NCBI GenBank assembly: GCA_030668875.1
Contig: DAOVER010000071.1
Coordinates: 1-13,023 of the forward strand
Source of the DNA: Candidatus Heimdallarchaeota archaeon
Lineage (GTDB): Archaea > Asgardarchaeota > Heimdallarchaeia > Heimdallarchaeales > Heimdallarchaeaceae
Direction of reading: 5' to 3'
DNA: 13,023 nucleotides
Shown: in pieces, positions 898 to 13,023 of the stretch
Numbering within the stretch: position 1 is the first letter of the stretch
Layout: each line of letters begins with the position of its first letter
Position numbers and translations under genes: made by a program
The notes under the pieces: model-generated
Seen by the model: the letters and a program-made list of their open reading frames with translations, nothing else
Told to the model about the DNA's origin: nothing
The model's database searches: none

Positions 898-1068
898 TTT
901 CAACAACTATGAATATTCCTTTTTAACTCTTTAATATTTCTCTAATCCTAGTATGATATTTTCAAAATAATATCACTTTTTGACAAAAATGGCAAGTTGT
1001 TGTTAACTTGCACAGTCGAAAGAACAGTAAGTAACGACAAAAATCACACAGTTAAAGGATGCCTTTCC

Positions 1069-1076
1069 TTTATATA
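1069..1076. promoter_or_regulatory. Candidate TATA box (TTTATATA on +, TATATAAA on -)
   Basis: Matches the archaeal TATA consensus and lies in the divergent intergenic region. No convincing purine-rich BRE on either side, so orientation is unresolved. Confidence 0.35.
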
Positions 1077-1100
1077 TGGGCACGGCAGAATGAAGAATAG

Positions 1101-1116
1101 CAAAAAGCCTTATAAG
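1101..1116 (+). promoter_or_regulatory. Candidate BRE-TATA (caaaaagc-CTTATAAG)
   Basis: A-rich BRE-like segment adjoining a TTATAA core, upstream of the kor operon. Confidence 0.4.
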
Positions 1117-1155
1117 TGGAACAAACTCGTCTAAAAGTGGAGATACGTGTCGTTT

Positions 1156-1171
1156 TAACAAAACTTATAAG
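1156..1171 (+). promoter_or_regulatory. Candidate BRE-TATA (taacaaaa-CTTATAAG), the most operon-proximal promoter candidate
   Basis: A-rich BRE-like segment plus TTATAA core ~57 nt before the ATG at 1228; would place a transcription start near 1195. Confidence 0.45.
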
Positions 1172-1227
1172 AGACCTATAGCTGTTCCATCAAACTGAAA
1201 TTAATTAGTGGTTTGCGGGATTCATTG

Positions 1228-1548
1228 ATGAACTATAGTTTTGATCGGAAAAAGAAAAAAGCAGAATGGCCTGCTTTTGTAGATATTAAAGAGTGGAAAA
1301 TAGTTACACCTCAGATTCACATTATATCCTCTAGATGTAAAGAGTGTAGGTGGTGCGTGGAATTTTGTCCAGAGGAGATACTAGAAACATCCGATGAAAT
1401 CAACGAAAAAGGATATCACCCCCCTAGACTTATTGAAGGGAAAACATTTGAGAACTGTGCAGAGTGTCATTTCTGTGAACTAATTTGTCCTGAATTCGCT
1501 ATTTTTGTCAAAAAACCTGCCGAAGAGGAGGAAATAATAGTTGAGTGA
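1228..1548 (+). CDS. korD: 2-oxoacid:ferredoxin oxidoreductase delta subunit (2x[4Fe-4S] ferredoxin-like)
   Basis: CKECRWCVEFCP and CAECHFCELICP motifs, a KGYHPP linker typical of KorD, and a position directly upstream of the alpha subunit. ATG 1228 chosen; TTG 1213 is an alternative. Confidence 0.85.
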   Translation: MNYSFDRKKKKAEWPAFVDIKEWKIVTPQIHIISSRCKECRWCVEFCPEEILETSDEINEKGYHPPRLIEGKTFENCAECHFCELICPEFAIFVKKPAEEEEIIVE

Positions 1549-2707
1549 TAATAAAGAAAATACACCAATGGTTAATACTGGAGAATATTTCACCAGTGGA
1601 AATTTAGCAGTAGCTGAAGGATCGCTTGCTGCAGGATGCAAGTTTTTTGGTGGGTATCCCATTACTCCTAGTTCTGAAGTTGCAGAACATATGTCCATCA
1701 AATTACCCCAAACTAAAGGACACTTTGTTCAATTTGAAGATGAAATAGCTTCAATAGCTTCAATTCTGGGGGCTAGTTGGGGTGGATGGAAATCAATGAC
1801 CGCTACTTCTGGACCAGGTTATTCCTTGATGTTGGAAAATATTGGATTAGGAATCATGACCGAAACACCTTGTGTTATAGTCAATGTTCAACGTGGTGGA
1901 CCATCTACAGGATTACCAACCTTAGTAGGTCAACAGGATATTCAGCAAGCAAGATGGGGAAGTCATGGAGATTATGAAATTATTGCACTATCACCTAATA
2001 GTGTGCAAGAATGTTTTGATCTTGCTATTACAGCATTTAATCTGGCAGAGGAATACAGAGTTCCTGTAACTATTCTGATGGATGAAACAATTGGCCACAT
2101 GAGTGAAAAACTTATTATTCCAGAAAAAGAGAAAATTAAAATTGTCAACAGGAAGAAACCAACTAACGAAGCTGATGGTCATCTACCCTATAAAGCAGAT
2201 GAAGACTTGATACCTCCAATGGCTGTTGCAGGTGAGGGGTATAATGTAATCACAACAGGTTTGACTCATGATGAAAGAGGATATCCTGCTCTTGATGCGG
2301 ACGCACAAAAAATTCTGCTTACAAGACTTCTAGATAAAATTAGAAAAAACAAAGACAAAATAATCAAGCTTGAGGAGTACATGCTTGACGATTCTGAATT
2401 TGTAATTGTCTCTTTTGGGATAAGTTCAAGAGCAGCTAAGGGAGCGGTTAATCTTGCCAGAAAAAAGGGTCTAAAAGTTGGTTATTTGAGGTTAATTACT
2501 GTTTGGCCATTTCCAGATGAACAAATTAATCAAATTGCTGAAAAAGTTAAAGCTATTTTCATAACAGAAATAAACTCAGGACAAGTTACAAGAGAAGTTA
2601 AACGAGCTGTTGAAGGAAAAACAGAGGTTCACGGATTACTAAAACTAGGTGGGGCAATTCATACACCTGCAGAAATTGTAGAAGAAATAGAGAGGCGAAC
2701 AAAATGA
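1541..2707 (+). CDS. korA: 2-oxoacid (probably 2-oxoglutarate):ferredoxin oxidoreductase alpha subunit
   Basis: GYPITP, QFEDE, ATSGPG and QRGGPSTGLPT motifs. TTG start with GAGGAGG at 1525-1531; overlaps the korD stop. Substrate specificity is inferred from family resemblance only. Confidence 0.92.
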   Translation: MSDNKENTPMVNTGEYFTSGNLAVAEGSLAAGCKFFGGYPITPSSEVAEHMSIKLPQTKGHFVQFEDEIASIASILGASWGGWKSMTATSGPGYSLMLENIGLGIMTETPCVIVNVQRGGPSTGLPTLVGQQDIQQARWGSHGDYEIIALSPNSVQECFDLAITAFNLAEEYRVPVTILMDETIGHMSEKLIIPEKEKIKIVNRKKPTNEADGHLPYKADEDLIPPMAVAGEGYNVITTGLTHDERGYPALDADAQKILLTRLLDKIRKNKDKIIKLEEYMLDDSEFVIVSFGISSRAAKGAVNLARKKGLKVGYLRLITVWPFPDEQINQIAEKVKAIFITEINSGQVTREVKRAVEGKTEVHGLLKLGGAIHTPAEIVEEIERRTK

Positions 2708-3573
2708 CTGAAGAAGAAATTGGTTTGATAGAAGCAGAGGAACACCCTCTTGATTGTTATCTAAGGAAGGGGAGAATACCTCACATATGGTGTCCCGGAT
2801 GTAGTTTGGGTTCAGTCGCAACAATGATTATAGAGGCAATAAGAGAAACAGGTATTGACCCAAAAAATATATCTGTCATTTCAGGAATTGGTTGTACTGG
2901 TCGAACAGCAGGGTATCTGAATTTCGATTCTTTCCACACAACACATGGGAGAGCAATACCTTTTGCGATTGGTCTTGGTCTAACTGATCCTAATAGAAAA
3001 ATCATAGTTATCTCAGGTGATGGAGATCTCGCTTCAATTGGTGGAAACCATCTAATACACGCTGCAAGAAGAAATGCCGATATTACAGTTATTTGTGTGA
3101 ATAATTTTCAATATGGTATGACAGGAGGGCAAGTCGGTCCAACTTCATACAAAGGTCAAGTTCAGACTACAGCACCCTATAGTAACATCGAAGAACCTTT
3201 CAACTTACCAGAACTCATAAAAGCATGTGGGGCCACTTATGTTGCAAGATGGACAGCTTTAGATGTTAGAAGAGTGAAAGAATCTTTTGTTGAAGCAATT
3301 AATCACAAAGGATTCTCTTTTGTTGAGATTTTGGGTGCATGTCCAACAACGTATGGTAGAAGAAACCAATTAAGAGAAGGGATAGCGATATTAGAAAATT
3401 TCAAGGAAAGAGCAGTGATTGAACACGGAATAGATACCGAAAAGGTCGCAATTGGCAAGGAAGGACCGATTATTGTTGGTAGGTTTGTAGATATTCATGA
3501 TAAACCATCTTTGACGGACAATTTGCTTAGTATTCAAAGAATGGCAACAGCATCTAAAGGTAAGGGGTCATAA
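2704..3573 (+). CDS. korB: 2-oxoacid:ferredoxin oxidoreductase beta subunit (TPP-binding, [4Fe-4S])
   Basis: WCPGC, GIGC, HTTHGRA, TPP motif GDGD...NN, YGMTGGQ and CPT. ATGA overlap with korA. Confidence 0.93.
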   Translation: MTEEEIGLIEAEEHPLDCYLRKGRIPHIWCPGCSLGSVATMIIEAIRETGIDPKNISVISGIGCTGRTAGYLNFDSFHTTHGRAIPFAIGLGLTDPNRKIIVISGDGDLASIGGNHLIHAARRNADITVICVNNFQYGMTGGQVGPTSYKGQVQTTAPYSNIEEPFNLPELIKACGATYVARWTALDVRRVKESFVEAINHKGFSFVEILGACPTTYGRRNQLREGIAILENFKERAVIEHGIDTEKVAIGKEGPIIVGRFVDIHDKPSLTDNLLSIQRMATASKGKGS

Positions 3574-3575
3574 AA

Positions 3576-4115
3576 ATGAGTGATAGAATCGAAATTCGTT
3601 TTGCTGGATTTGGTGGGCAAGGAATTGCTCTTATGGGAAGACTTGTTGGAGAAGTAATTAGTCTTCACGAAAAAGGTAAGCAGTCAGTCATGACACAGAG
3701 TTATGGTCCAGAAAGCAGAGGAGGAGCTAGTAGTTGTGATGTTGTGATTGACACTCAAGTTATTGATTATCCTAAATCAACAGAGTTTGATTATTTTGTT
3801 GTGATGTCTGAAGAAGCTTATCACAAATATGTCCCTCTTTTGAAAAAAGGTGGAATTATGTTCGTTGAAGAAAACCTTGTAACTTTAGACGACCAGGCAA
3901 AGAAAGCTAGTAAAATTTTCAAACTACCCGCAACCGCAATAGCAGAATCTCTTGGAAGTCGTTTATATGCAAATATTGCAATGTTGGGCTTCGTATGTGC
4001 TAATACTGATCTTTTCTCTGAAGAGGCTTTTATTCAAGTAATGAAAGCGAAAGTGCGAGCAAGGTTCATCGAGAAAAATCTTACAGCTTTTGAAAAAGGA
4101 AAGAATCACAAATGA
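3576..4115 (+). CDS. korC: 2-oxoacid:ferredoxin oxidoreductase gamma subunit
   Basis: AGFGGQG, QSYGPESRGG, YPK, and NIAMLG...N..AF.KG pattern of POR/KOR gamma subunits. Confidence 0.9.
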   Translation: MSDRIEIRFAGFGGQGIALMGRLVGEVISLHEKGKQSVMTQSYGPESRGGASSCDVVIDTQVIDYPKSTEFDYFVVMSEEAYHKYVPLLKKGGIMFVEENLVTLDDQAKKASKIFKLPATAIAESLGSRLYANIAMLGFVCANTDLFSEEAFIQVMKAKVRARFIEKNLTAFEKGKNHK

Positions 4116-4149
4116 TTATCCAAAAACATGTGGAATTAGGCGTATAGAG

Positions 4150-4575
4150 ATGGAAGATTTCGAACCAAATATCATAGGATTCTTGTGCAACTGGTGCTCA
4201 TATGCCGGTGCAGACTTAGCTGGTACTAGCAGGATTCAATACTCACACAATGTCAAAATTATTCGGGTTATGTGCTCAGGAAGAGTTAACCCGATGTTTG
4301 TTATTAATGCATTACAACAAGGTGCTGATGGTGTTCTAATTGGAGGTTGTCACCCAGGTGATTGTCATTATCAACACGGAAACTATCTTGCCAGAAGAAG
4401 AATATCCGTTATGAAAAAGTTGCTTGAATTTATGGGAATTAATCCGGAGAGGATTAAAATGACTTGGGTTTCTGCTGCTGAAGGAAGAAAATTTGCTGAA
4501 GTTGTGGATGAAGTAACTGCAGAAATCAGAAAATTAGGACCTAACACTAAAATTAGGAGGAAGAACGAATGGTAG
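4150..4575 (+). CDS. flxD: MvhD-family [2Fe-2S] electron-transfer protein (FlxD-type), 141 aa
   Basis: FLCNWCSYAGAD, RVMCSGRV and GCHPGDCHY motifs, diagnostic of MvhD. ATG at 4150 with AGGCG 7 nt upstream is preferred to the track's TTG at 4090, which overlaps korC. Confidence 0.9.
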   Translation: MEDFEPNIIGFLCNWCSYAGADLAGTSRIQYSHNVKIIRVMCSGRVNPMFVINALQQGADGVLIGGCHPGDCHYQHGNYLARRRISVMKKLLEFMGINPERIKMTWVSAAEGRKFAEVVDEVTAEIRKLGPNTKIRRKNEW

Positions 4576-5552
4576 ATCAGAAAATGCTTGTTGAAGTTGC
4601 CAAAGAAACACTTGCAAGAGAAGATGTTAAGTACATTATTGGCTATAAGAAAGGATCATACGGATTTCAGACAAGTGCAGCATTTGCATACACCCCTAAA
4701 GATGTAGAAGAATTTATTTTTACTCCTCTATGCAATAAAAACCTAGCAAAATATCCTCTTAAAGAAGAAAAACTACCTCTGAAAAGAGGAGAAGAAGAAG
4801 ATAAAAGAAAAATAGGCCTCGTTGTAAAAGGATGCGATTCAAGAGCAATTGTTCAGATCATTCAGGAAAATGGAATGAAAAGAGAAGATGTTGTTTTAAT
4901 AGGTATCCCATGCCCAGGTGTAATTAATCAGAAAGAGATAGAGAAGAGATTTCCAAACCAATCAGAAATTACTGATATAAATGAAATTAATGATGAATAT
5001 GTTTTTACAGTCGAAGGAAAAGAGCATAAAATTCCAAAACAAGAACTCTTAGCTGAAGTCTGTAAAACTTGTGAGTATCCAAATCCCGTATTATATGATG
5101 TAATGATTGGAGAAGAAGTTGAAGTTAATCCTAAGGCAGAATACGAAGGAATAAAAGATTTGGAAGAAGCGCCCTTAGAAAATAGATGGGAGTATTGGGA
5201 AGAACAATTTCAAAGATGTATCCGTTGTTATGCTTGTAGAGAAGCATGTCCATTATGTTATTGTAGTACATGTATGGCTGATTTGCTTGAACCTCAGTGG
5301 ATTAGACGTTCCGTCAACCTTTCTGAAAATACTGCTTGGAATATAATGCGCGCTTTTCATCTTGCTGGGAGATGTATTAGCTGTGGAGCTTGTGAAAACG
5401 CATGCCCAATGGATATTCCTTTGATGGAATTAAACAAAAAATTAGGGAAAGAAGTAAAAGAAATGTTTGAATATACACCAGGATTAGATATTGATGCCAA
5501 ACCATTGCTTGGTAGTTTTAATCCTGATGATCCCGAAGAATTCATAAAATGA
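4569..5552 (+). CDS. flxC: FlxC-like Fe-S protein (FdhB/FrhB-related N-terminus, C-terminal 4Fe-4S dicluster)
   Basis: KGCDSR, PCPG, CKTC, CIRCYACREACPLCYCSTC and HLAGRCISCGACENACP motifs. Lies between the MvhD-like and AsrA-like genes, as in flxDCBA. Confidence 0.75.
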   Translation: MVDQKMLVEVAKETLAREDVKYIIGYKKGSYGFQTSAAFAYTPKDVEEFIFTPLCNKNLAKYPLKEEKLPLKRGEEEDKRKIGLVVKGCDSRAIVQIIQENGMKREDVVLIGIPCPGVINQKEIEKRFPNQSEITDINEINDEYVFTVEGKEHKIPKQELLAEVCKTCEYPNPVLYDVMIGEEVEVNPKAEYEGIKDLEEAPLENRWEYWEEQFQRCIRCYACREACPLCYCSTCMADLLEPQWIRRSVNLSENTAWNIMRAFHLAGRCISCGACENACPMDIPLMELNKKLGKEVKEMFEYTPGLDIDAKPLLGSFNPDDPEEFIK

Positions 5553-5561
5553 AGTGAAGAA

Positions 5562-6587
5562 ATGGAAAGTCTAGTAATATCAAAAGAAAATTTTCCTGAA
5601 ATCATCAATACTATAATAAAAAGCTACAGACTATTCGCTCCCACAGAGGAGAATGGATTTTCTGGTTTCAATATTATAAAGGATTATTCAGAGATGGATC
5701 TATCTTATCTAAATTCTAGAATGCCCCCCAAAGCAATATTGTTTAATCAAACTGAAACGCTCTTTCTAATGAAACCTGGTGCAAAAGGATCTATTAAACC
5801 TAAAGAAATTAGAAATGAAAAAACAGCAATTTTTGCTATTAGACCTTGTGATGCTAAAGGTTTCAGAATCCTTGATCCAGTGTTTCTTGGTAATTATGTT
5901 GATCCATTATATAAGGCCAATAGAGACAACAGTGTTTTGATCGGATTAAGTTGTAATCAACCTGATTCGAGTTGTTTTTGTACTTCATTTGGTGATAGCC
6001 CTGCTTCTGGAAAATATGTTGATATTCTATTTACTGATATAGAAGAGAAATATTTAGTTGAAGTCATGACTGAAAAGGGGAAGGGGTTTGTTAACGATTT
6101 CAGCAGATTTTTCTCACCAGCTTCACCAAATCAAATAGAAGCTAAGAACGCTAAAGAAGAAGAAGCAATCAAATTAATAAAACGAAATTTGAAAGTAGAA
6201 GGCATAGAAGAAAAAATGGATAAAATGTTTGATCATCCAATTTGGGAAGAATATGCCAAAAAGTGCATAGGGTGTGGAACATGTACATATTTGTGCCCAA
6301 CTTGCCACTGCTTCGATATGCAAGACGAAAGCACACTAGATAAAGGAGCTAGAGTTCGTACCTGGGACGCATGTATGTTCCCAGAATATACAATGCATGC
6401 TTCAGGACATAACCCACGTCCAGCAAGAATGCATAGAGTGAGAAATAGGTTTTATCACAAATACAGTTACTATCCAAAAAATTCTGGTGTTATCGCTTGT
6501 ACAGGATGTGGTAGGTGTATCAGATATTGTCCCGTAAATATTGATATTATAGAATTAATGAACCGAGTAAGTGAGATGGAACTATGA
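5562..6587 (+). CDS. flxB: FlxB-like Fe-S protein (sulfhydrogenase beta / AsrA family)
   Basis: RPCD, CNQPDSSCFC, CIGCGTCTYLCPTCHCF, RTWDAC and CTGCGRCIRYCP motifs. Confidence 0.8.
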   Translation: MESLVISKENFPEIINTIIKSYRLFAPTEENGFSGFNIIKDYSEMDLSYLNSRMPPKAILFNQTETLFLMKPGAKGSIKPKEIRNEKTAIFAIRPCDAKGFRILDPVFLGNYVDPLYKANRDNSVLIGLSCNQPDSSCFCTSFGDSPASGKYVDILFTDIEEKYLVEVMTEKGKGFVNDFSRFFSPASPNQIEAKNAKEEEAIKLIKRNLKVEGIEEKMDKMFDHPIWEEYAKKCIGCGTCTYLCPTCHCFDMQDESTLDKGARVRTWDACMFPEYTMHASGHNPRPARMHRVRNRFYHKYSYYPKNSGVIACTGCGRCIRYCPVNIDIIELMNRVSEMEL

Positions 6588-7429
6588 CAGAAAATCCTTA
6601 CCAACCTTCGTTGGCAACAATTGAGAAGATAAAAGTCGAAGTGACTGGTGAAAGAGCGATAAAGACATTCAGATTGGTAATGCAGGATAAAAAAATCCAA
6701 GAAGAGTTTAGTTTTGTTTGTGGTCAATGTGTCATGATAAGTAAGCTAGGAAAAGGTGAAAGCATGTTTGCAATTTCATCCTCACCTACTGAGAAAGATT
6801 ATCTTGAAGTAAGTGTGATGAAACACGGAAAGAATACCTCAGCTTTGCATGAAACAGAAGAAGGAGACACTGTTGGAGTAAGAGGACCTTATGGTAATCA
6901 TTTTGACGTAGAAGGATGGAAAAATAAGAACATTGTTTTCGTCGGAGGAGGGATTGGAATGGCACCACTAAGATCAGTAGTCAACTATACTCTTGCTGAT
7001 AAAAACAGAGACCAATATGGCAATCTAGACATTATCTATGGAGCAAGAACATCAAATGATTTATGTTTCAAGGATGAATTTGCTGAGCTACAAAAACGCG
7101 AAGATGTAAACGTCCATCTCTCTATTGATGTAGTAGAAGAAGGATGGGAAGAGTTTGTAGGATTTGTTCCGTCTAATCTGCTCAGGGTTAAACCCCCATC
7201 CAAGAATACAATTGCTATTACTTGTGGTCCCCCAATAATGATCAAATTTGTCATTCAAAACTTACTAGAATTAGGATTCAAAGATGAGCAAATTTACACA
7301 ACTCTCGAAATGAGAATGAAGTGCGGAATTGGAATTTGTGGACGATGCAATATCGGCAATCTTTATGTTTGCAAAGATGGTCCAGTATTTTCGAATGCTC
7401 AGTTAAAAAATCTTGAAGGAGATTTGTAA
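6584..7429 (+). CDS. flxA: FlxA-like FAD/NAD(P)H oxidoreductase with [2Fe-2S] (FNR family; sulfhydrogenase gamma / AsrB / PyrK-like)
   Basis: RGPYGN, GGGIGMAP, YGAR, CGPPIM and MKCGIGICGRC...VCKDGP motifs. ATGA overlap with the preceding gene. Confidence 0.85.
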   Translation: MTENPYQPSLATIEKIKVEVTGERAIKTFRLVMQDKKIQEEFSFVCGQCVMISKLGKGESMFAISSSPTEKDYLEVSVMKHGKNTSALHETEEGDTVGVRGPYGNHFDVEGWKNKNIVFVGGGIGMAPLRSVVNYTLADKNRDQYGNLDIIYGARTSNDLCFKDEFAELQKREDVNVHLSIDVVEEGWEEFVGFVPSNLLRVKPPSKNTIAITCGPPIMIKFVIQNLLELGFKDEQIYTTLEMRMKCGIGICGRCNIGNLYVCKDGPVFSNAQLKNLEGDL

Positions 7430-7442
7430 AGGTCGTGAAACT

Positions 7443-9410
7443 ATGCGTATAGGTGTTTATGTCTGTGAATGTGGAAAAAATATATCTGCAACTGTTGACG
7501 TTGAAAAGGTTGTAGATTATGCAAAATCTCTTCCTAATGTAGCCGCAAGTCGTGTTTACAAGTATATGTGTGCTGATCCTGGTCAAGAACTTATTAAGAA
7601 GGATATAGAAGAACTGAAGCTAGATAAAGTCATAGTTGCAGCATGTTCTCCCAGAATGCATGAACCTACTTTTAGAGCTGCGATTGAGGACAAAGGATTA
7701 AATCCATATACACTAGAAATAGTCAATATTCGTGAACAAGTTTCATGGGTTCATGACGATAAAAAGAAAGGCACTAAAAAAGCAAAATCATTAGTAAAGA
7801 GTTCTGTTATGCGTTCTGCTCTAATGGAACCTTTGGATAGGAAAAAAGTAGGAGTTACTCACAAAGCTCTCGTAATAGGTGCAGGAATTGCTGGAATACA
7901 AGCAGCTTTAGATATTGCAGGATCAGGTTATCAAGTAACGCTTGTTGAAAAGACATCATCCATTGGAGGAAAAATGGCACAGTTAGATAAGACTTTTCCA
8001 ACATTAGATTGCTCTGCATGTATTCTGAGTCCTAAAATGGTTGAAGTAGGACGTAATCCTAATATCACTCTAATTGCCAATGCTGAAGTGGAACAAGTTG
8101 ACGGTTATGTAGGTAATTTCAAAGTTAAAATTAAGAAAAAACCACGCTATGTAATTGAAGAAAGATGTACAATGTGTGATGATTGTGTTCCTGTTTGTCC
8201 TGTTATTGTTCATGATGAATACAACGAGAACTTATCACCTCGTAAAGCGATATATATCGCATTTCCTCAAGCTATTCCGGCATCGTATATTATTAACCCT
8301 GACGATTGTTTAGGTATCGACCCTCTCATATGCTCTAAATGTAAAGATGTTTGTGGTCCTGAAGCTATTGATTTTGACATGAAACCTGAGATAATTGAGG
8401 ATGAATTTGGAGCTATTGTTGTTGCTACTGGATTTGATACATACCCAATAGAAAATCTTGGAGAATATGGTCAAGGCAATATACCTGATGTTATTACAGG
8501 TTTAGAGTTCGAAAGATTGATATCCCCAGGAGGTCCATCAACTGGAGATTTAAGAAGACCTTCTGATGGAAAATTGGTGAAAAATGTTGTTTTCATCCAT
8601 TGTGCTGGCTCAAGAGATCCTGCAAAACACTTACCATACTGCTCTAAAATCTGCTGCATGTACTCCACTAAACAAGCTTTAATGTTCAAACATGAAGTGC
8701 GTGATGGAACTGCAGTTAATTTCTACATTGATATACGTACTGGAGGAAAAGATTACGAGGAGTTTTATCAAAGAGCAGCAGAAGAAGCAAAAGTTATTTA
8801 CATTAGAGGAAAAGTTTCTGAGCTAATACAAGATGGAGATAAGATTTTAGTTAAAGGTGTAAATACACTAACTGCTGAAACGGTTGAACTACATGCTGAT
8901 TTAGTTGTGCTTGCAACAGGTATTATCCCAAGTCAAGGAACAAAGGATATAGCAAGTGTATTAAGACTCTCCCTTGGAATTAACGGGTTCATCAAAGAAG
9001 CTCATCCGAAATTAAAACCAGTTGAAACTTCAATTACTGGGGTTTTCGTTGCTGGATGTGCTACAGGGCCGAAAGATATCCCCGAGACAGTATCACAAGC
9101 AGGAAGAGCAGCAGTAAGAGCTTGTAATATTATAGCTCAAGATGAGATTGAAGTCGAAGCAACAATTGCTCATGTTGACGAAATATTATGTCGAGGTTGT
9201 GGAATCTGTGTGGGAACATGTCCTTATAGTGCAATCACTTTGATAGACACTAAAAGATTTGGAAATATCTACAAAGTAGCTTCTGTAAATGAAGCACTGT
9301 GCAAGGGATGTGGCTCATGTGCAGCTGCATGTTTGAATGGCGCCATAAACCAATTTGGTTTTGAAGATAAGCAAATCCTTGCAATGATACAAGCTTTAGG
9401 AGAAGAATAG
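7443..9410 (+). CDS. hdrA: Heterodisulfide reductase subunit A (bifurcating flavoprotein), 655 aa
   Basis: N-terminal CECG/CADP/AACSP, GAGIAG, TLDCSAC, inserted ferredoxin domain, GLEFER, HCAGSR...YCSKICCMYSTK, and a C-terminal 2x[4Fe-4S] domain. ATG 7443 is preferred to the track's TTG 7413. Confidence 0.96.
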   Translation: MRIGVYVCECGKNISATVDVEKVVDYAKSLPNVAASRVYKYMCADPGQELIKKDIEELKLDKVIVAACSPRMHEPTFRAAIEDKGLNPYTLEIVNIREQVSWVHDDKKKGTKKAKSLVKSSVMRSALMEPLDRKKVGVTHKALVIGAGIAGIQAALDIAGSGYQVTLVEKTSSIGGKMAQLDKTFPTLDCSACILSPKMVEVGRNPNITLIANAEVEQVDGYVGNFKVKIKKKPRYVIEERCTMCDDCVPVCPVIVHDEYNENLSPRKAIYIAFPQAIPASYIINPDDCLGIDPLICSKCKDVCGPEAIDFDMKPEIIEDEFGAIVVATGFDTYPIENLGEYGQGNIPDVITGLEFERLISPGGPSTGDLRRPSDGKLVKNVVFIHCAGSRDPAKHLPYCSKICCMYSTKQALMFKHEVRDGTAVNFYIDIRTGGKDYEEFYQRAAEEAKVIYIRGKVSELIQDGDKILVKGVNTLTAETVELHADLVVLATGIIPSQGTKDIASVLRLSLGINGFIKEAHPKLKPVETSITGVFVAGCATGPKDIPETVSQAGRAAVRACNIIAQDEIEVEATIAHVDEILCRGCGICVGTCPYSAITLIDTKRFGNIYKVASVNEALCKGCGSCAAACLNGAINQFGFEDKQILAMIQALGEE

Positions 9411-9421
9411 AGGCGAAAAAT

Positions 9422-9835
9422 ATGTCTTATGATTATATAGAATTTGGAGACACTGAAAAAGAGTTCACTTCAAAGATAGAAGAAATATCTGGACAGAACA
9501 TCTTTAGTTGTTATCAATGCGGAAAATGTTCTGCTGGTTGCGCTTTTAGTAATCTTATGGAAAAAACAATAAATCATACCATGCAACTTGTACAGTTAGG
9601 AAAAAAAGAGAAAGTTCTGCAATCAAATACCCATTGGGTATGTGCAAGTTGTTTAACATGTACTGTTCGATGTCCAAGAGAAATTGATGTTGCAGCCGTT
9701 ATGGAAGCTATACGTGAGTATACCTTACGCTATGAACCAGAAACAATTGAGAGGCTAGATTTGCCAGAAGAGTTGTTGAAGAAGATACCCAATATTGCAT
9801 TGGTTGGGAGCTTCCGTAAAAAATCAGAATTATAA
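9422..9835 (+). CDS. hdrC: Heterodisulfide reductase subunit C (2x[4Fe-4S])
   Basis: CYQCGKCSAGC and WVCASCLTCTVRCP motifs; lies between hdrA and hdrB. Confidence 0.9.
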   Translation: MSYDYIEFGDTEKEFTSKIEEISGQNIFSCYQCGKCSAGCAFSNLMEKTINHTMQLVQLGKKEKVLQSNTHWVCASCLTCTVRCPREIDVAAVMEAIREYTLRYEPETIERLDLPEELLKKIPNIALVGSFRKKSEL

Positions 9836-9847
9836 TAAGGTGAATAA

Positions 9848-10756
9848 ATGAAAAATTCCTACTTTCCCGGATGTAATTTAAAAACTGAGGCCAAAGGATT
9901 TGAACAATCAGCAATCGCTGTGTCAAAAGCACTAGATGCGGAACTAGTAGAAATGCCTGAATGGAATTGTTGTGGAACAGTTCAAACCATGACAACTGAT
10001 AATTTAATGAGAAGGATTGCTCCAGTTAGAGTTCTATCTAGAGCATCAAACCATGTAAAAGAGTTAAAGAACTCTCAGAATCAAGTTATAACCTTATGTT
10101 CAATGTGTAATTCTACTCTAAAAATAGTCAATGCAGAAGTAAAAGAGAATCCAAATGATCTTGAGAAAATTAATTTTCAGCTAGAAAACGATGATTTAGT
10201 TTACGAAGGAGATATGGAAGTAAAGCATTTTCTTGAAATTCTCAGAGACGATGTTGGTTATGAAAATATCGCAAAAAAAGTAACTAATCCATTAGAGGGG
10301 ATGAAAATTGCTTCGTATTATGGCTGTATGCTTCTACATCCAGAAAAAGCTAAAATAGATGACGAAGAGATGCCCACAGTTATGGAAAGTATTGTTCTAT
10401 CATTGGGAGCTGAAGTAGTTGATTGGCCTTACTTCAAACAATGTTGTGGTTCCTATCATATCGTAGATAGAGACGATATTGTAAATTCTCAAGTTGTTAA
10501 AATCATCAGAAATGCAAAGAAAACTGGTGCAAATGCTTTGATCGTAGCATGTCCTTTGTGCGCTTATAATCTTGATAATCAACAAGTAGAATTAGAAAAA
10601 CTAGGTGTAGAAAAAGAGCCCATACCCATTTTTTATTTTACACAACTAATGGCTATAGCAATGGGATTACCACAAAAAGTAAATCATTTTGAAGATCATC
10701 ATATAAACCCAATACTCTTACTTAAAGAGTTAGGACTGATAGGGAAAAAGAAATAG
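9848..10756 (+). CDS. hdrB: Heterodisulfide reductase subunit B (two CCG domains)
   Basis: YFPGC...NCCG...LCSMC and YYGC...QCCG...ACPLC: both 5-Cys CCG motifs are complete. Confidence 0.93.
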   Translation: MKNSYFPGCNLKTEAKGFEQSAIAVSKALDAELVEMPEWNCCGTVQTMTTDNLMRRIAPVRVLSRASNHVKELKNSQNQVITLCSMCNSTLKIVNAEVKENPNDLEKINFQLENDDLVYEGDMEVKHFLEILRDDVGYENIAKKVTNPLEGMKIASYYGCMLLHPEKAKIDDEEMPTVMESIVLSLGAEVVDWPYFKQCCGSYHIVDRDDIVNSQVVKIIRNAKKTGANALIVACPLCAYNLDNQQVELEKLGVEKEPIPIFYFTQLMAIAMGLPQKVNHFEDHHINPILLLKELGLIGKKK

Positions 10757-10766
10757 AGGGTTAAAA

Positions 10767-11492
10767 ATGGCAAAAACAAAATCAAAAACAAAAGCAGAAA
10801 ATCAAACCCAGATGGTAAAAATTTACATTATGGGGAGTATGTATGAAGTTCCTTCATCATTAACCATAATGAAAGCAATAGAATATGCGGGATTCAAACT
10901 AATAAGAGGCAGTGGATGTCGTGCTGGCTTCTGTGGCGCATGTGCTACCGTATATCGTAAAAAAGGAGATTTCAGAATATATACCGCTTTAGCTTGCCAG
11001 ACTCAAGTTGAAGAAGGGATGTATCTCACACAAATGCCCTTCGTTCCAGCAAATAAAGCAAAATATGATATTGACACCATTCAACCTATAGCAAGCACAA
11101 TTCTTCAGTACTATCCTGAAGTAGCACGATGTTTAAGCTGTAACGCTTGCTCAAGAGTATGCCCACAAGAAATTCAAGTGATGGATTATGTGCAACATTG
11201 CTTGCATGGGGAAATCGATAAAGCAGCTGCAGTGAGTTTTGACTGTGTGCAATGCGGTTTATGTGCAATTCGTTGCCCTGCTGAAATCCCACAATATCAT
11301 GTAGCTACTTTAGTAAGAAGACTACACGGAAAATATAATATGAAACCTCCAGAATCTCTTGAAAAGAGAGTAAAAGAGATTGAAGATGGAGAATATGAAG
11401 AAGGGTTCAAAGAACTCATGTCTCTTCCTGAGGACAAATTACGACACAAATACTATCACGAAAGAGACTTCATTGATCAGAAAAAGGCGTGA
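10767..11492 (+). CDS. SdhB/FrdB-like iron-sulfur protein ([2Fe-2S] + 2x[4Fe-4S]), no CCG domain
   Basis: GCRAGFCGAC...LACQ [2Fe-2S] motif, CLSCNACSRVCP and CVQCGLCAIRCP. Lies 2 nt upstream of an SdhA-family flavoprotein gene. Confidence 0.85.
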   Translation: MAKTKSKTKAENQTQMVKIYIMGSMYEVPSSLTIMKAIEYAGFKLIRGSGCRAGFCGACATVYRKKGDFRIYTALACQTQVEEGMYLTQMPFVPANKAKYDIDTIQPIASTILQYYPEVARCLSCNACSRVCPQEIQVMDYVQHCLHGEIDKAAAVSFDCVQCGLCAIRCPAEIPQYHVATLVRRLHGKYNMKPPESLEKRVKEIEDGEYEEGFKELMSLPEDKLRHKYYHERDFIDQKKA

Positions 11493-11494
11493 TT

Positions 11495-13023
11495 ATGATG
11501 ATAAGAGGATATCCTGAAAATATGCGTAAAAGCATAAAAAATGTAAACAAAACTAGAGCAAAACGCTTAACAGAAATTAAAGCAGATTTAACAGAAGCTG
11601 AAAGAAAAGAGGTTCTTGACAATTATCATCCAGATTACAATCCAAAATTTAAAAGAGATCTGGGATGGGGACCCAACAAAGGCGATAATGTACCTAATGA
11701 AGTAGCAGACGTAATCGAAGCTTACCCAGTTGTTAACCCTGATGATATTGATTTATCTCAAATTGATTATGATGTAGGAGTACTAATAATTGGAGCGGGT
11801 GGAGCAGGTACTTCAGCTGCTTTATGGGCAGTAAAAGAAGGAGTACCAGCTGATAAAATCTTTATGGTAACTAAATTAAGATTGGGTGATTGTAATACTG
11901 TCATGGCTCAAGGAGGCATTCAAGCAGCAGATCGTGATGTAGATTCTCCCCTCATCCATTACCTTGATGTAATGGGTGGTGGGCATTTTGATAATAAGCC
12001 TAAGTTGGCAAAAGCTCTAGTGAATGATGGACCAAAAATCATAAAATGGCACAAAGAACTTGGCATGATGTATGACCAAAATCCAGATGGAAGTTTTGTT
12101 GAAAATCCAGGTGGTGGTACATCTAGAAATAGAATGCATTGCTCAAAAGATTACACAGGAATGGAAATTTTCCGCACTTTGAAGGATGAAATCATCAATA
12201 AAGATATTCCAGTTCTAGAATTTTCTCCAGCTATTGAGCTCTTAACAGATGAAACAGGAAGAATTGCCGGAGCTATTCTCTATAACATCGAAACTAAGCA
12301 GTATTTCGTAGTTAAAGCAAAAATAACAATTTTAACCACAGGAGGTTTTGGTAGATTACATGTTGCTGGTTTTCCAACAACCAACCATTATGGAGCTACA
12401 GCTGATGGTGTAGTAATGGCTTATCGTGCAGGAGCTAAACTCCGAAATCTTGAATCCACACAATTCCACCCCACTGGAGCAGCTTTTCCAGAGCAAATAG
12501 TCGGTCTGCTCATAACTGAAAAAGTAAGAAGTCTAGGAGGGCAAGTATTAGGATACGATGGAGAACAAATTTGTTATCCACTTGAACCAAGAGATGTTGA
12601 AGCTTCTTCTCTTATCAAATGCTGTAAATCCACAGAAAATTACATTGAAACACCTACAGGTATGAGAGGTGTTTGGTTGGATAGTCCATTGATCGAAGAA
12701 TTAAAAGGAAAGGGTTCAGTTGAGAAAAACCTAAGTGCTATGTATCGTATGATGCAACGTTTCGATATTGACATATCCAAGGATCCCATTCTAGTTTATC
12801 CTACACTTCATTATCAGAATGGAGGAATTCTACATGATGAAAACTGCTATTCTTCTCTTAAAGGTCTTTTAGCTGCAGGAGAAATCTCTGGTGGAGTTCA
12901 TGGAAAGAATCGTTTAATGGGTAATTCACTATTAGAAGTTAATGTGTTTGGAAGACGAGCAGGTATAACAGCAGCTAAAGAATACAAAAAGAAAGGTGGA
13001 AACTCAGGAAAATTGTCTTTGGA
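11495..13023 (+). CDS. SdhA/FrdA/TfrA-family FAD flavoprotein (fumarate reductase-like), 3' end beyond the window
   Basis: Manual translation gives 509 open codons from ATG 11495 (MMIRGYPENMRKS...). Motifs: IIGAGGAG, CNTVMAQGG, TGGFG, TNHYGATADG, QFHPTG, ITEKVR, EPRDV, LHYQNGG, AAGE, HGKNRLMGNSL, FGRRAG. Absent from the ORF track, presumably because it has no stop codon in the window. Confidence 0.92.
   Translation, partial: MMIRGYPENMRKSIKNVNKTRAKRLTEIKADLTEAERKEVLDNYHPDYNPKFKRDLGWGPNKGDNVPNEVADVIEAYPVVNPDDIDLSQIDYDVGVLIIGAGGAGTSAALWAVKEGVPADKIFMVTKLRLGDCNTVMAQGGIQAADRDVDSPLIHYLDVMGGGHFDNKPKLAKALVNDGPKIIKWHKELGMMYDQNPDGSFVENPGGGTSRNRMHCSKDYTGMEIFRTLKDEIINKDIPVLEFSPAIELLTDETGRIAGAILYNIETKQYFVVKAKITILTTGGFGRLHVAGFPTTNHYGATADGVVMAYRAGAKLRNLESTQFHPTGAAFPEQIVGLLITEKVRSLGGQVLGYDGEQICYPLEPRDVEASSLIKCCKSTENYIETPTGMRGVWLDSPLIEELKGKGSVEKNLSAMYRMMQRFDIDISKDPILVYPTLHYQNGGILHDENCYSSLKGLLAAGEISGGVHGKNRLMGNSLLEVNVFGRRAGITAAKEYKKKGGNSGKLSL

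What the first reader, a model, noticed from the sequence alone, without database searches (positions are those of the whole stretch)
1228..13023. One 13-gene cluster joins KorDABC, Flx-Hdr and a soluble SdhAB/FrdAB-like pair: candidate NAD(P)H-driven electron-bifurcating fumarate reductase coupled to a 2-oxoacid synthase
Seen: all 13 genes are co-oriented with overlaps or gaps of 2-34 nt, and I saw no TATA-like box or T-tract in the gaps. Established: HdrA bifurcates electrons; FlxABCD-HdrABC of Desulfovibrio is an NADH dehydrogenase/heterodisulfide reductase; fumarate reduction and reductive carboxylation of succinyl-CoA by Kor are near-consecutive reductive TCA steps. Inference: NADH (about -320 mV) gives little or no driving force for ferredoxin reduction if the high-potential acceptor is a CoM-S-S-CoB-like disulfide (about -140 mV), but a favourable one if it is fumarate (about +30 mV). 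The cluster could therefore catalyse 2 NAD(P)H + fumarate + Fd(ox) -> succinate + Fd(red), with the ferredoxin feeding Kor. Alternatively, Kor runs oxidatively and the module acts as an NADH sink. I recall Flx-Hdr genes next to SdhAB-like genes in some anaerobic bacteria, so parts may be known. I am not aware of a biochemically characterised HdrA-fumarate bifurcation or of this Kor-linked archaeal arrangement.
Basis: partly seen in the sequence, partly recalled or inferred. Interest (0 to 1): 0.85.

Follow-up and report, generated by a model that had tools for sequence, protein, structure and literature searches.

The report
Archaeal Kor–Flx–Hdr–fumarate reductase operon
A Heimdall-group (Asgard) archaeon packs a 2-oxoglutarate enzyme, an NAD(P)H-fed electron-splitting HdrA module and an unusual membrane-free fumarate reductase into one 13-gene operon; this is an archaeal copy of a gene set already proposed, but never tested biochemically, in bacteria.

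Summary
There are 13 co-oriented genes at 1228-13021, with four overlaps and eight gaps of 2-34 nt. The last gene is cut by the contig end. The genes are korDABC, flxDCBA, hdrA, hdrC, hdrB, an SdhB-like FeS protein and an FrdA-like flavoprotein.

The flavoprotein belongs to a distinct, uncurated subfamily:
- the fumarate catalytic His-Arg-His-Arg set is invariant;
- the covalent-FAD His is always Asn;
- it has a conserved 95-aa N-terminal extension and no Pfam C-terminal domain.

In about 30 related loci, hdrC-hdrB-frdB-frdA is always together and kor is often attached. The electron-input module swaps between Flx, Mvh [NiFe] hydrogenase and an unknown polyferredoxin set. A same-genus relative carries both Flx and Mvh.

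The genome also encodes ATP-citrate-lyase-like genes, aconitase, IDH, SCS, fumarase and MDH. No other Hdr or Sdh/Frd was found.

Most likely reading: NAD(P)H-driven HdrA bifurcation sends electrons to fumarate and to ferredoxin, which feeds Kor in a reductive TCA route.

The idea is already published for tubeworm-symbiont rTCA clusters and for P. thermosuccinogenes. This scan has already noted Mvh-type versions in other Asgard genomes. The window is therefore a new member of a known, untested kind.

The parts
907..1227 (.). Intergenic region shared with a divergent small-GTPase gene; likely promoter of the operon
   Evidence: TATA-like motifs at 1069, 1109 and 1164. This is the only long non-coding stretch before the 13 genes.
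1228..1548 (+). korD: delta subunit of a 2-oxoacid:ferredoxin oxidoreductase, 2x[4Fe-4S]
   Evidence: Fer4 families. Best NCBIfam match is OGOR_delta, 57 bits, below its cut-off.
1541..2707 (+). korA: alpha subunit
   Evidence: POR_N + PFOR_II. NF006412 scores 569 bits against a cut-off of 411. Best PDB matches are 1yd7, 8ys5 (2-oxoglutarate synthase) and 6n2n.
2704..3573 (+). korB: beta (TPP-binding) subunit
   Evidence: TPP_enzyme_C. Best NCBIfam match is the 2-oxoglutarate Fd oxidoreductase beta subunit, 240 bits, below its cut-off.
3576..4115 (+). korC: gamma subunit
   Evidence: PF01558 POR; NF006323, 170 bits.
4150..4575 (+). flxD: MvhD-type [2Fe-2S] adaptor to HdrA
   Evidence: PF02662 FlpD, 196 bits. 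Matches VhuD and the HdrA2 C-terminus. Five Cys.
4569..5552 (+). flxC: FdhB-like iron-sulfur protein
   Evidence: Fer4 families plus a weak FrhB_FdhB_C match. Best PDB matches are the FdhB chains of Fdh-Hdr complexes, 7bkb_E and 8rvu_E.
5562..6587 (+). flxB: sulfhydrogenase-beta/AsrA-like FeS protein
   Evidence: Fer4_22; ShyB/HydB/AsrA models; PDB 9nez_B, sulfhydrogenase beta.
6584..7429 (+). flxA: FAD/NAD(P)H-binding subunit with a [2Fe-2S] site; electron entry point
   Evidence: FAD_binding_6 + NAD_binding_1 + DHODB_Fe-S_bind; HydG/ShyC/AsrB models.
7443..9410 (+). hdrA: bifurcating-type flavoprotein
   Evidence: HdrA2 model, 817 bits. Full-length match to the solved HdrA chains 5odc_A and 8rvu_a. 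It is the only hdrA found in the genome.
9422..9835 (+). hdrC: 2x[4Fe-4S] subunit
   Evidence: CoB_CoM_SS_C and qmoC N-terminus models. Eight Cys are invariant in 19 homologues.
9848..10756 (+). hdrB: two CCG domains (non-cubane cluster sites)
   Evidence: PF02754 x2. CoB_CoM_SS_B scores 156 bits and MFR SdhE 148 bits. Ten Cys are invariant. Matches solved HdrB chains in PDB.
10767..11492 (+). frdB: SdhB/TfrB-N-like FeS subunit, [2Fe-2S] + 2x[4Fe-4S]
   Evidence: A CX4CX2C...C motif plus two CxxCxxCxxxCP motifs, all invariant. Weak matches to the TfrB N-terminus and dhsB.
11495..13023 (+). frdA: fumarate-reductase-type flavoprotein, cut by the contig end (509 of about 554 aa)
   Evidence: FAD_binding_2. 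Best NCBIfam match is TfrA, well below its cut-off. Catalytic H/R/H/R are invariant and the covalent-FAD His is Asn. The model's top Foldseek hits are FrdA and SdhA.

Best explanation
The 13 genes encode a soluble redox unit that takes electron pairs from NAD(P)H and splits them at the HdrA flavin.

Proposed electron paths:
- Entry: FlxA (FAD, 2Fe-2S) passes electrons through FlxB and FlxC to FlxD (MvhD) and on to the HdrA FAD.
- High-potential branch: electrons run through HdrC and the two non-cubane clusters of HdrB into the SdhB-like FeS subunit. From there they reach the non-covalently bound FAD of the FrdA-like subunit, which reduces fumarate to succinate.
- Low-potential branch: electrons leave through the ferredoxin-like domain of HdrA to ferredoxin, or perhaps directly to KorD. 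They drive KorDABC to carboxylate succinyl-CoA to 2-oxoglutarate.

One fumarate reduced yields one reduced ferredoxin, which is exactly what one Kor turnover needs. Together with the ATP-citrate-lyase-like genes, aconitase, IDH, SCS, fumarase and MDH encoded elsewhere in the genome, this would power a reductive TCA cycle or branch.

Shown here: gene content, cofactor motifs, catalytic residues, conserved synteny, module swapping and genome context. Inferred: the direction of flow, bifurcation itself, fumarate as the substrate, and any physical contact with Kor.
For: Operon structure:
- The genes are tightly packed with SD-like motifs.
- None of the 13 proteins has a transmembrane-like segment.

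Hdr and Flx components:
- HdrA aligns over its full length to solved bifurcating HdrA.
- HdrB and HdrC keep all cluster Cys.
- FlxA and FlxB resemble the NAD(P)H module of sulfhydrogenase.
- FlxC resembles FdhB of the Fdh-Hdr complexes. FlxD is MvhD.

Flavoprotein and FeS subunit:
- The flavoprotein keeps the positions that align with SdhA His242, Arg286, His354 and Arg399. These are invariant in 42 homologues.
- The His45 position (covalent FAD) is invariantly Asn. From established E. coli FrdA His44 mutant work, this fits a fumarate-reducing direction.
- The fold matches FrdA/SdhA.
- FrdB has a 2Fe-2S motif and two 4Fe-4S motifs.

Synteny:
- The gene order is identical in 10 Heimdall loci at 54-97% identity.
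- hdrC-hdrB-frdB-frdA is adjacent in nearly all of about 30 loci, including one bacterium. Exceptions: L027 puts hdrA, mvhD and a flxC-like gene between hdrCB and frdBA, and L034 has hdrCB on the opposite strand.
- kor is attached in about 8 of about 14 lineages.
- The donor module is exchangeable: Flx, MvhDGA + HycI, or an unknown polyferredoxin set. One same-genus locus carries both Flx and Mvh, with two hdrA genes.
- HdrA clades track the donor type.

Own genome:
- hdrA, hdrB, hdrC, frdA and frdB occur only in this cluster.
- No PF02910-type SdhA or NadB was found.
- aclBA-like genes, aconitases and IDH are on C68. sucCD and fumAB are present, as is an Ldh_2-type MDH.
- McrA and DsrC were not found.

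HdrB + FrdB complex prediction gave weak support only:
- The score was 0.39 and the best control 0.00.
- The mark was reached by 58 of 80 solved complexes and 2 of 110 mismatched pairs.
- At 0.60 or under, it was reached by only 7 of those 80 and by both mismatches.
- The runs agree in at least 92% of contacts, and the partner pLDDT is at least 81.

Thermodynamics, from established standard potentials: 2 NADH (-320 mV) to fumarate (+33 mV) plus ferredoxin (about -450 to -500 mV) is exergonic.
Against: - No biochemical or expression data exist for this or any homologous complex. No RNA run could be found.
- Kor is absent from the cluster in several lineages: f24, f28, f30, f31, Methanofastidiosia and Theionarchaea. 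The Kor link is therefore frequent but not obligatory.
- HdrB keeps both complete CCG sites, so a thiol/disulfide intermediate cannot be excluded.
- Kor specificity for 2-oxoglutarate is only suggested. The 2-oxoglutarate-specific NCBIfam models score below their cut-offs.
- Residues alone do not separate the flavoprotein's active site from that of L-aspartate oxidase.
- The genome is 92% complete, so genes 'not found' may simply be unassembled.
- No anaplerotic carboxylase was found with the two families tried.
Confidence: 0.55

Rival explanations
1. Thiol-shuttle version. Flx-HdrA-HdrCB reduces an unknown low-molecular-weight or protein disulfide. The thiol is then re-oxidised by the CCG/FeS/flavoprotein part acting as a thiol:fumarate reductase, as proposed for the tubeworm-symbiont cluster. 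The net reaction is the same, but a diffusible thiol carries the high-potential electrons.
For: - Both CCG motifs of HdrB are complete and invariant.
- The best NCBIfam matches of the flavoprotein and the FeS subunit are TfrA and the TfrB N-terminus.
- The four-gene unit hdrC-hdrB-frdB-frdA stands alone, without hdrA, in Methanofastidiosia and Theionarchaea.
- The same proposal is made in PMC6315080.
Against: - The cluster and the genome hold only one HdrB. The same site would have to both make and consume the thiol.
- McrA and DsrC were not found.
- HdrB sits directly next to FrdB in nearly all loci. The HdrB-FrdB contact prediction passed only weakly.
- CCG proteins are known to act as plain electron entry subunits in type E Sdh and MFR (established knowledge). 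HdrB here scores 148 bits on the MFR SdhE model.
Confidence: 0.12
2. Reverse (confurcating) operation in an oxidative route. Kor oxidises 2-oxoglutarate, for example from glutamate via GDH. The reduced ferredoxin is then used together with succinate to reduce 2 NAD(P)+, which would allow succinate oxidation without a membrane.
For: - Asgard archaea are described as amino-acid fermenters that use Hdr complexes in the confurcating direction (10.1101/726976).
- A GDH gene lies just downstream of the cluster in Heimdallarchaeum.
- The 1:1 stoichiometry of ferredoxin and succinate also fits this direction.
Against: - With standard potentials, the donor mean (about -210 to -235 mV) lies above NAD(P)H (-320 mV), so the reaction is endergonic.
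- The covalent-FAD His is invariantly Asn. Non-covalent FAD enzymes of this superfamily are poor succinate oxidisers (established knowledge).
- The genome carries ATP-citrate-lyase-type genes rather than a stand-alone citrate synthase.
Confidence: 0.12
3. The flavoprotein acts on a substrate other than fumarate, such as another enoate or L-aspartate. The cluster would then be an Hdr-linked reductase of a different kind.
For: - No NCBIfam model reaches its cut-off, and L-aspartate oxidase models score nearly as high as the Frd models.
- The protein has a unique N-terminal extension and lacks the C-terminal domain.
Against: - All four fumarate-binding and catalytic residues are invariant.
- It has a dedicated SdhB-like FeS partner.
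- It is the only Sdh/Frd-type enzyme found in a genome that has every other TCA step.
- It is repeatedly linked to kor, and in some loci to idh or gdh.
Confidence: 0.08
4. Co-located but independent enzymes: Kor, a Flx-HdrABC working on an unknown disulfide, and a separately reduced Frd. They share a promoter but exchange no electrons directly.
For: - Kor is missing from the cluster in several lineages.
- In Endoriftia, tfrAB expression departs from the rest of the cluster (PMC11636981).
Against: - hdrCB and frdBA are adjacent in nearly all loci. They are split by other genes in L027 and lie on opposite strands in L034.
- The genome has no other electron donor module next to frdBA and no second Hdr.
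- Swapping of the donor module between a fixed hdrA and hdrCB-frdBA argues for one assembly.
Confidence: 0.08

Closest known systems
korABCD - tfrAB - flxABCD-hdrABC rTCA gene cluster of tubeworm symbionts ('Ca. Endoriftia persephone') and Thioflavicoccus mobilis (Rubin-Blum et al. 2019, PMC6315080; Mitchell et al. 2024, PMC11636981)
   Same: It has the same four component sets: a four-subunit Kor, Flx, HdrABC and a soluble Tfr/Frd-like pair, co-oriented. It lies in a genome with ATP citrate lyase. The same hypothesis was proposed: NADH-driven bifurcation feeding fumarate reduction and Kor.
   Different: The window is archaeal (Heimdallarchaeaceae) and has a different gene order. It has no pntAB or rnf in the cluster. 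The bacterial cluster has co-expression data, and this one has none. I could not fetch the bacterial proteins, so whether their TfrA carries the same N-terminal extension and Asn was not tested.
'Succinate operon' of Pseudoclostridium thermosuccinogenes: fumarate hydratase + Flx-Hdr + novel fumarate reductase (PMC7282089; Koendjbiharie & van Kranenburg 2019 preprint, cited there)
   Same: Flx-Hdr is encoded with a soluble fumarate reductase. It was proposed to couple succinate formation to ferredoxin reduction.
   Different: It belongs to a fermentative succinate producer, has no Kor in the operon and is bacterial.
FlxABCD-HdrABC of Desulfovibrio vulgaris (Ramos et al. 2015; DsrC interaction, Ferreira et al. 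2023, cited in PMC10504309)
   Same: The subunit types are the same: FlxA with FAD/NAD(P)H, FeS subunits FlxB and FlxC, MvhD-like FlxD, and HdrABC.
   Different: There the acceptor is the DsrC disulfide and the neighbour is an alcohol dehydrogenase. Here DsrC was not found, the flx order is reversed (DCBA), and frdBA follows hdrB.
MvhAGD-HdrABC and Fdh-Hdr-Fmd complexes of methanogens (PDB 5odc, 7bkb, 8rvu)
   Same: HdrA, HdrB, HdrC, MvhD and the FdhB-like subunit match these solved chains. Relatives of the window carry MvhDGA in place of Flx. The Fmd precedent shows that a ferredoxin-consuming CO2-fixing enzyme can dock on Hdr.
   Different: McrA, used as a marker of the CoM/CoB system, was not found. 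The terminal acceptor module is FrdBA, and the CO2-fixing partner would be Kor.
Thiol:fumarate reductase TfrAB of Methanothermobacter
   Same: It is the best NCBIfam match of the flavoprotein and the FeS subunit. It has the same cofactor logic: flavoprotein + 2Fe-2S/4Fe-4S + CCG domains.
   Different: Scores are far below cut-off (295 against 718). TfrB is a fusion of the FeS and CCG parts, which here are separate genes with an extra HdrC. The flavoprotein has an N-terminal extension and lacks the TfrA C-terminal region.
QmoAB-HdrBC feeding AprAB in Gram-positive sulfate reducers (PMC10504309)
   Same: HdrA-type flavoproteins plus HdrBC deliver electrons to a flavoprotein/FeS pair of the fumarate-reductase superfamily.
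   Different: The substrate there is APS, not fumarate. No NCBIfam AprA match was listed for the flavoprotein.

Membership tests
kor-flx-hdr-tfr/frd rTCA-linked cluster (PMC6315080) | Four-subunit Kor, FlxABCD, HdrABC and a soluble Frd/Tfr pair, co-oriented in one cluster | tested here: met
kor-flx-hdr-tfr/frd rTCA-linked cluster (PMC6315080) | The genome carries ATP citrate lyase and the other rTCA enzymes | tested here: met
   aclB/aclA-like genes, aconitases and IDH on C68; sucCD and fumAB; Ldh_2-type MDH. ACL activity itself was not tested.
kor-flx-hdr-tfr/frd rTCA-linked cluster (PMC6315080) | The cluster is co-transcribed | not testable with these tools
   No RNA run was listed. Only the tight spacing supports co-transcription.
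kor-flx-hdr-tfr/frd rTCA-linked cluster (PMC6315080) | The flavoprotein is orthologous to the bacterial 'TfrA' of that cluster | not tested
   The gammaproteobacterial sequences could not be fetched. An Acetothermia bacterium does carry the same subfamily next to kor and hdr.
FlxABCD-HdrABC (D. vulgaris type) | FlxA with FAD/NAD(P)H + 2Fe-2S, two FeS subunits, an MvhD-like FlxD, and HdrA, HdrB and HdrC with full cofactor motifs | tested here: met
FlxABCD-HdrABC (D. vulgaris type) | DsrC disulfide as the high-potential acceptor | tested here: not met
   PF04358 was not found in the 92%-complete genome.
Thiol:fumarate reductase TfrAB | TfrA equivalog score; TfrB as a fused FeS + CCG protein; CoM/CoB thiols | tested here: not met
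   TfrA scores 295 bits against a cut-off of 718 on a full-length homologue. The FeS and CCG parts are separate genes. McrA was not found.
Canonical complex II SdhA/FrdA | Catalytic His-Arg-His-Arg set | tested here: met
   Aligned to E. coli SdhA and invariant in 42 homologues.
Canonical complex II SdhA/FrdA | Covalent 8-alpha-histidyl FAD, the C-terminal Succ_DH_flav_C domain, and a membrane anchor | tested here: not met
   Asn replaces the His. PF02910 is absent from four full-length homologues and was not found in the own genome. No transmembrane protein is encoded.
2-oxoglutarate:ferredoxin oxidoreductase (KorDABC/OorDABC) | Delta-alpha-beta-gamma subunits of the Kor/Oor clade rather than Por/Vor/Ior | tested here: met
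   Kor/Oor models are the top hits for all four subunits, and Por/Vor/Ior score far lower. PDB 8ys5 and 6n2n are among the best matches.
2-oxoglutarate:ferredoxin oxidoreductase (KorDABC/OorDABC) | 2-oxoglutarate specificity | tested here: inconclusive
   Only the general 2-oxoacid alpha model passes its cut-off. The 2-oxoglutarate-specific equivalogs score below theirs.

The most novel reading that the evidence does not exclude
HdrA, HdrCB-FrdBA and KorDABC form one physical supercomplex, analogous to the Fdh/Mvh-Hdr-Fmd megacomplex of methanogens. Low-potential electrons would pass straight from HdrA to KorD without free ferredoxin. The electron-input unit would be a plug-in cassette (Flx for NAD(P)H, Mvh for H2, or a third unknown polyferredoxin set) that Asgard lineages have exchanged. 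The same-genus locus carrying both cassettes and two hdrA genes would be an evolutionary intermediate. This would be a dedicated machine for the two hardest steps of the reductive TCA cycle in the closest archaeal relatives of eukaryotes.
Probability: 0.25. Interest if true: 0.75.

Novelty: new member of a known kind. Interest (0 to 1): 0.5.

Why it matters
Fumarate reduction and reductive carboxylation of succinyl-CoA are the redox-critical steps of the reductive TCA cycle. A soluble bifurcating enzyme that pays for the ferredoxin-dependent step with the energy released by fumarate reduction would explain how strict anaerobes run this route on NAD(P)H or H2 without a membrane.

Several papers have proposed this enzyme, but it has never been assayed.

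The Heimdall-group versions add three things:
- a cross-domain distribution;
- a clear invariant core (hdrCB-frdBA);
- natural donor-module swaps that point to which subunits to express together.

The finding also bears on metabolic models of Asgard archaea. Those models usually list these genes separately, as 'Flx-Hdr', 'Mvh-Hdr' and 'succinate dehydrogenase'.

Tried and rejected
- RNA evidence: no RNA holder was listed, either for a 9.2-kb stretch or for the hdrB-frdA junction. Co-transcription is therefore untested.
- The single genome-contig scan with the flavoprotein returned only close Heimdall relatives. Wider context had to come from the look-up of encoding contigs and the genome search.
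- A second homologue search seeded with the Acetothermia protein did not reach Proteobacteria or Clostridia in its top 120. Orthology with the published bacterial 'TfrA' could not be checked.
- The phrase search 'bifurcating fumarate reductase' returned no paper.
- Pereira et al. 2011 could not be opened. The Flx subunit description of Ramos and Pereira therefore rests on my own knowledge.
- AprAB/Qmo identity was considered, because hdrC matches the qmoC N-terminus. It was rejected because no AprA family was listed for the flavoprotein.
- The C-terminal 45 aa of FrdA are not on another contig of the assembly.
- Anaplerotic enzymes were not found with PF02436 and PF14010. Other families were not tried.
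- The sigma-70 promoter/terminator scanner was not used, because the organism is an archaeon.

Full report
**Observation**

The window is an entire 13,023-bp contig of a 3.23-Mb, 92%-complete MAG. Its closest protein relatives are labelled Heimdallarchaeaceae or Heimdallarchaeota.

Thirteen + strand ORFs run from 1228 to the contig end. With the best-supported start codons, the junctions are four overlaps (8, 4, 7 and 4 nt) and eight gaps (2, 34, 9, 13, 11, 12, 10 and 2 nt). Most genes are preceded by a GAGG/GGAGG/GGTG-like motif. No gap has a T-run. TATA-like motifs occur only in the 320-nt region upstream of korD. The last gene is truncated: 509 aa are present, against about 554 aa in homologues.

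**Gene identities**

- Genes 1-4 are the delta, alpha, beta and gamma subunits of a 2-oxoacid:ferredoxin oxidoreductase of the Kor/Oor clade.
  - The alpha subunit passes the NF006412 cut-off.
  - The 2-oxoglutarate-specific models are the best but sub-threshold hits for the other subunits, while Por, Vor and Ior models score far lower.
  - Solved relatives include a 2-oxoglutarate synthase (8ys5) and Magnetococcus KorAB (6n2n).
- Gene 5 is an MvhD-type protein.
- Gene 6 is an FeS protein whose best solved relatives are the FdhB chains of Fdh-Hdr complexes.
- Genes 7 and 8 resemble the beta and gamma (FAD/NAD(P)H) subunits of sulfhydrogenase and AsrAB. Genes 5-8 together are FlxDCBA.
- Gene 9 matches solved bifurcating HdrA over its whole length.
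- Genes 10 and 11 are HdrC (eight Cys) and HdrB (two complete CCG motifs). All these Cys are invariant in 19-20 homologues.
- Gene 12 carries a CX4CX2C...C motif and two CxxCxxCxxxCP motifs, all invariant. This is SdhB-like cofactor content, but with a four-Cys third cluster.
- Gene 13 is an FAD_binding_2 flavoprotein.
- None of the 13 proteins has a transmembrane-like segment.

**The flavoprotein is a distinct subfamily**

- On a full-length homologue that is 93% identical, no NCBIfam model reaches its cut-off. The best is TfrA at 295 bits against 718, and L-aspartate oxidase and Sdh/Frd models follow closely.
- Pfam finds only FAD_binding_2, starting at residue 96, and no Succ_DH_flav_C domain.
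- The alignment to E. coli SdhA shows that the positions of His242, Arg286, His354 and Arg399 are conserved. The covalent-FAD His45 position is Asn.
- In a 42-sequence alignment these five positions are invariant, and many residues of the 95-aa N-terminal extension are invariant too.
- An AlphaFold model (mean pLDDT 79.5) folds the extension confidently. Its best Foldseek hits are E. coli FrdA and M. smegmatis Sdh1.
- Searched alone, the extension finds 276 cluster representatives. In the 150 representatives listed, the match is at or near the N-terminus in all but two (P0252, P0333).
- From established work on E. coli FrdA His44 variants, loss of the covalent link preserves fumarate reduction but not succinate oxidation. 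This argues for the reductive direction.

**Comparative genomics**

Ten Heimdall loci keep exactly the window's order at 54-97% amino-acid identity. The flavoprotein subfamily occurs in 63 of 399 Asgard genomes and is patchily distributed:

| Family | Genomes with the flavoprotein |
|---|---|
| f1 (own family) | 26/29 |
| f7 | 9/12 |
| f24 | 6/7 |
| f25 | 5/5 |
| f28 | 5/5 |
| f20 | 0/135 |

Context analysis of about 30 loci gave five results.

1. hdrC-hdrB-frdB-frdA is contiguous in almost every locus. This includes an Acetothermia bacterium, and Methanofastidiosia and Theionarchaea, where the four genes stand alone. In two loci (L027, L034) the hdrCB and frdBA pairs are close but not contiguous.
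2. korDABC is attached in about eight lineages and absent from the cluster in about six.
3. Between the conserved parts, the electron-input module differs:
   - flxDCBA in the window's genus and a sister genus;
   - mvhD-mvhG-mvhA-hycI in Heimdallarchaeum and several other families;
   - an MvhD-polyferredoxin fusion plus a Fer4_11 protein and two unknown small proteins in two lineages;
   - an HdrA-MvhD fusion with no donor genes in the bacterium.
4. One genome of the window's own genus (L025) carries kor-hdrA-mvhDGA-flxDCBA-hdrA-hycI-hdrCB-frdBA. It therefore has both cassettes and two hdrA genes.
5. In an HdrA tree, the Flx-linked copies form one supported clade (98/100) that includes the second L025 copy. 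The Mvh-linked copies of the same family form another (100/98) that includes the first L025 copy. flxDCBA-hdrA therefore behaves as a cassette.

In the nearest relative, frdA is followed by a convergent MFS transporter gene, so the operon ends with frdA.

**Genome context**

By tblastn, hdrA, hdrB, hdrC, mvhD, frdA and frdB occur only in this cluster.

| Searched for | Result |
|---|---|
| Canonical SdhA/NadB C-terminal domain | not found |
| McrA | not found |
| DsrC | not found |
| IDH, two aconitase-family sets, and an AclB-like (ATP-grasp_2/Citrate_synth_N) plus AclA-like (CoA_binding/Ligase_CoA/Citrate_synt) pair | found on contig C68 |
| sucCD | found on C74 |
| Class I fumarase | found on C17 |
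| Ldh_2-type malate dehydrogenase | found on C39 |
| GDH | found on C91 |
| Group 3b-like NAD(P)-linked hydrogenase | found on C23 |

Every step of a reductive TCA cycle thus has a candidate gene. The window supplies the only fumarate/succinate enzyme and the Kor.

**Mechanism**

The most economical reading follows the solved Hdr complexes. NAD(P)H enters at FlxA and passes through FlxB, FlxC and FlxD to the HdrA flavin, where electron pairs are bifurcated. The high-potential branch runs through HdrC and HdrB into FrdB and FrdA and on to fumarate. The low-potential branch reduces ferredoxin for Kor.

With standard potentials (NADH -320 mV, fumarate +33 mV, ferredoxin about -450 to -500 mV) this is exergonic. 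One fumarate reduced gives one reduced ferredoxin, which matches one Kor turnover.

A prediction of HdrB with FrdB gave weak support only:
- The score was 0.39 and the best control 0.00.
- The mark was reached by 58 of 80 solved complexes and 2 of 110 mismatched pairs.
- At 0.60 or under, it was reached by only 7 of those 80 and by both mismatches.
- The runs agree in at least 92% of contacts, and the partner pLDDT is at least 81.

Rival readings are a thiol-shuttle variant, reverse confurcation, a different substrate, and independent enzymes. They are weighed in their own sections. None is excluded, because no biochemical or expression data exist.

**Comparison with the literature**

- Rubin-Blum et al. 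2019 described co-oriented korABCD, tfrAB and flxABCD-hdrABC in the rTCA clusters of tubeworm symbionts and Thioflavicoccus. They proposed a complex that shuttles electrons to OGOR and fumarate reductase.
- Mitchell et al. 2024 showed co-expression of that cluster.
- Koendjbiharie and colleagues proposed Flx-Hdr plus a novel fumarate reductase as a ferredoxin-reducing unit in P. thermosuccinogenes.
- Imachi et al. noted Flx-Hdr and a monophyletic Asgard 'SdhA', but did not join them.
- An rTCA cycle in Heimdallarchaeaceae has been suggested at the pathway level.
- I found no paper describing the archaeal Kor-Flx-Hdr-Frd operon, and no biochemical characterisation of any member.
- Earlier notes of this scan describe Mvh-type and hybrid versions in other Asgard genomes with the same reading. 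I reached the Mvh-type, hybrid and literature results independently before opening them.

**Verdict**

The system is an archaeal, Flx-fed member of an already proposed but untested kind. The results that I did not find described in the papers I searched are:
- the invariant hdrCB-frdBA core;
- the defining features of the flavoprotein subfamily;
- the exchangeable donor cassettes, with a same-genus hybrid;
- the ACL-containing genome context.

Noticed in passing
window 256-906 (- strand): A divergently oriented 216-aa small GTPase with Arf/Ras/Roc-type Pfam hits. It is of the eukaryote-like kind common in Asgard genomes.
   Followed up: no
L041 (G000:C68) 5509-13865: One co-oriented run on another contig of the same genome: IDH, a split aconitase-family pair, a 616-aa aconitase, and an AclB-like plus 713-aa AclA-like pair (ATP-citrate-lyase architecture).
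   Followed up: partly
L025 (G019, same genus as the window): A hybrid cluster with both MvhDGA and FlxDCBA and two hdrA genes, one from each HdrA clade. The flx-hdrA cassette sits between mvhA and hycI.
   Followed up: partly
L020 5497-7923 and L028: A third donor module in place of Flx or Mvh: an MvhD-2x[4Fe-4S] fusion (339 aa), a Fer4_11 protein (163 aa), and two proteins of 132 and 165 aa with no Pfam family.
   Followed up: partly
L015 12681-14033 and L021: A glutamate dehydrogenase gene lies about 1 kb downstream of frdA in Heimdallarchaeum. An isocitrate dehydrogenase gene follows the cluster in the Acetothermia bacterium (L017 12865-13980).
   Followed up: no
L002 11713-13059 (- strand); L016 12928-14268: An MFS transporter gene lies next to frdA in two relatives. 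It might move dicarboxylates, by analogy with the putative succinate transporter in the P. thermosuccinogenes operon. This is speculative.
   Followed up: no
L019 about 2624-4591, stop at 4141: The hdrA of an Asgardarchaeia MAG has one in-frame TGA and was not called as a gene in the record. The aligned window residue is not Cys, so an assembly error or a pseudogene seems more likely than selenocysteine.
   Followed up: partly
L035 and L036, downstream of frdA: A second, shorter FrdA-like ORF (402-409 aa, 35% identity) directly follows frdA in family f31.
   Followed up: no
G000:C23 49499-53460: A sulfhydrogenase-like (group 3b-type) four-gene set that includes paralogues of FlxB and FlxA. It could link H2 to NAD(P)H in the same organism.
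   Followed up: no
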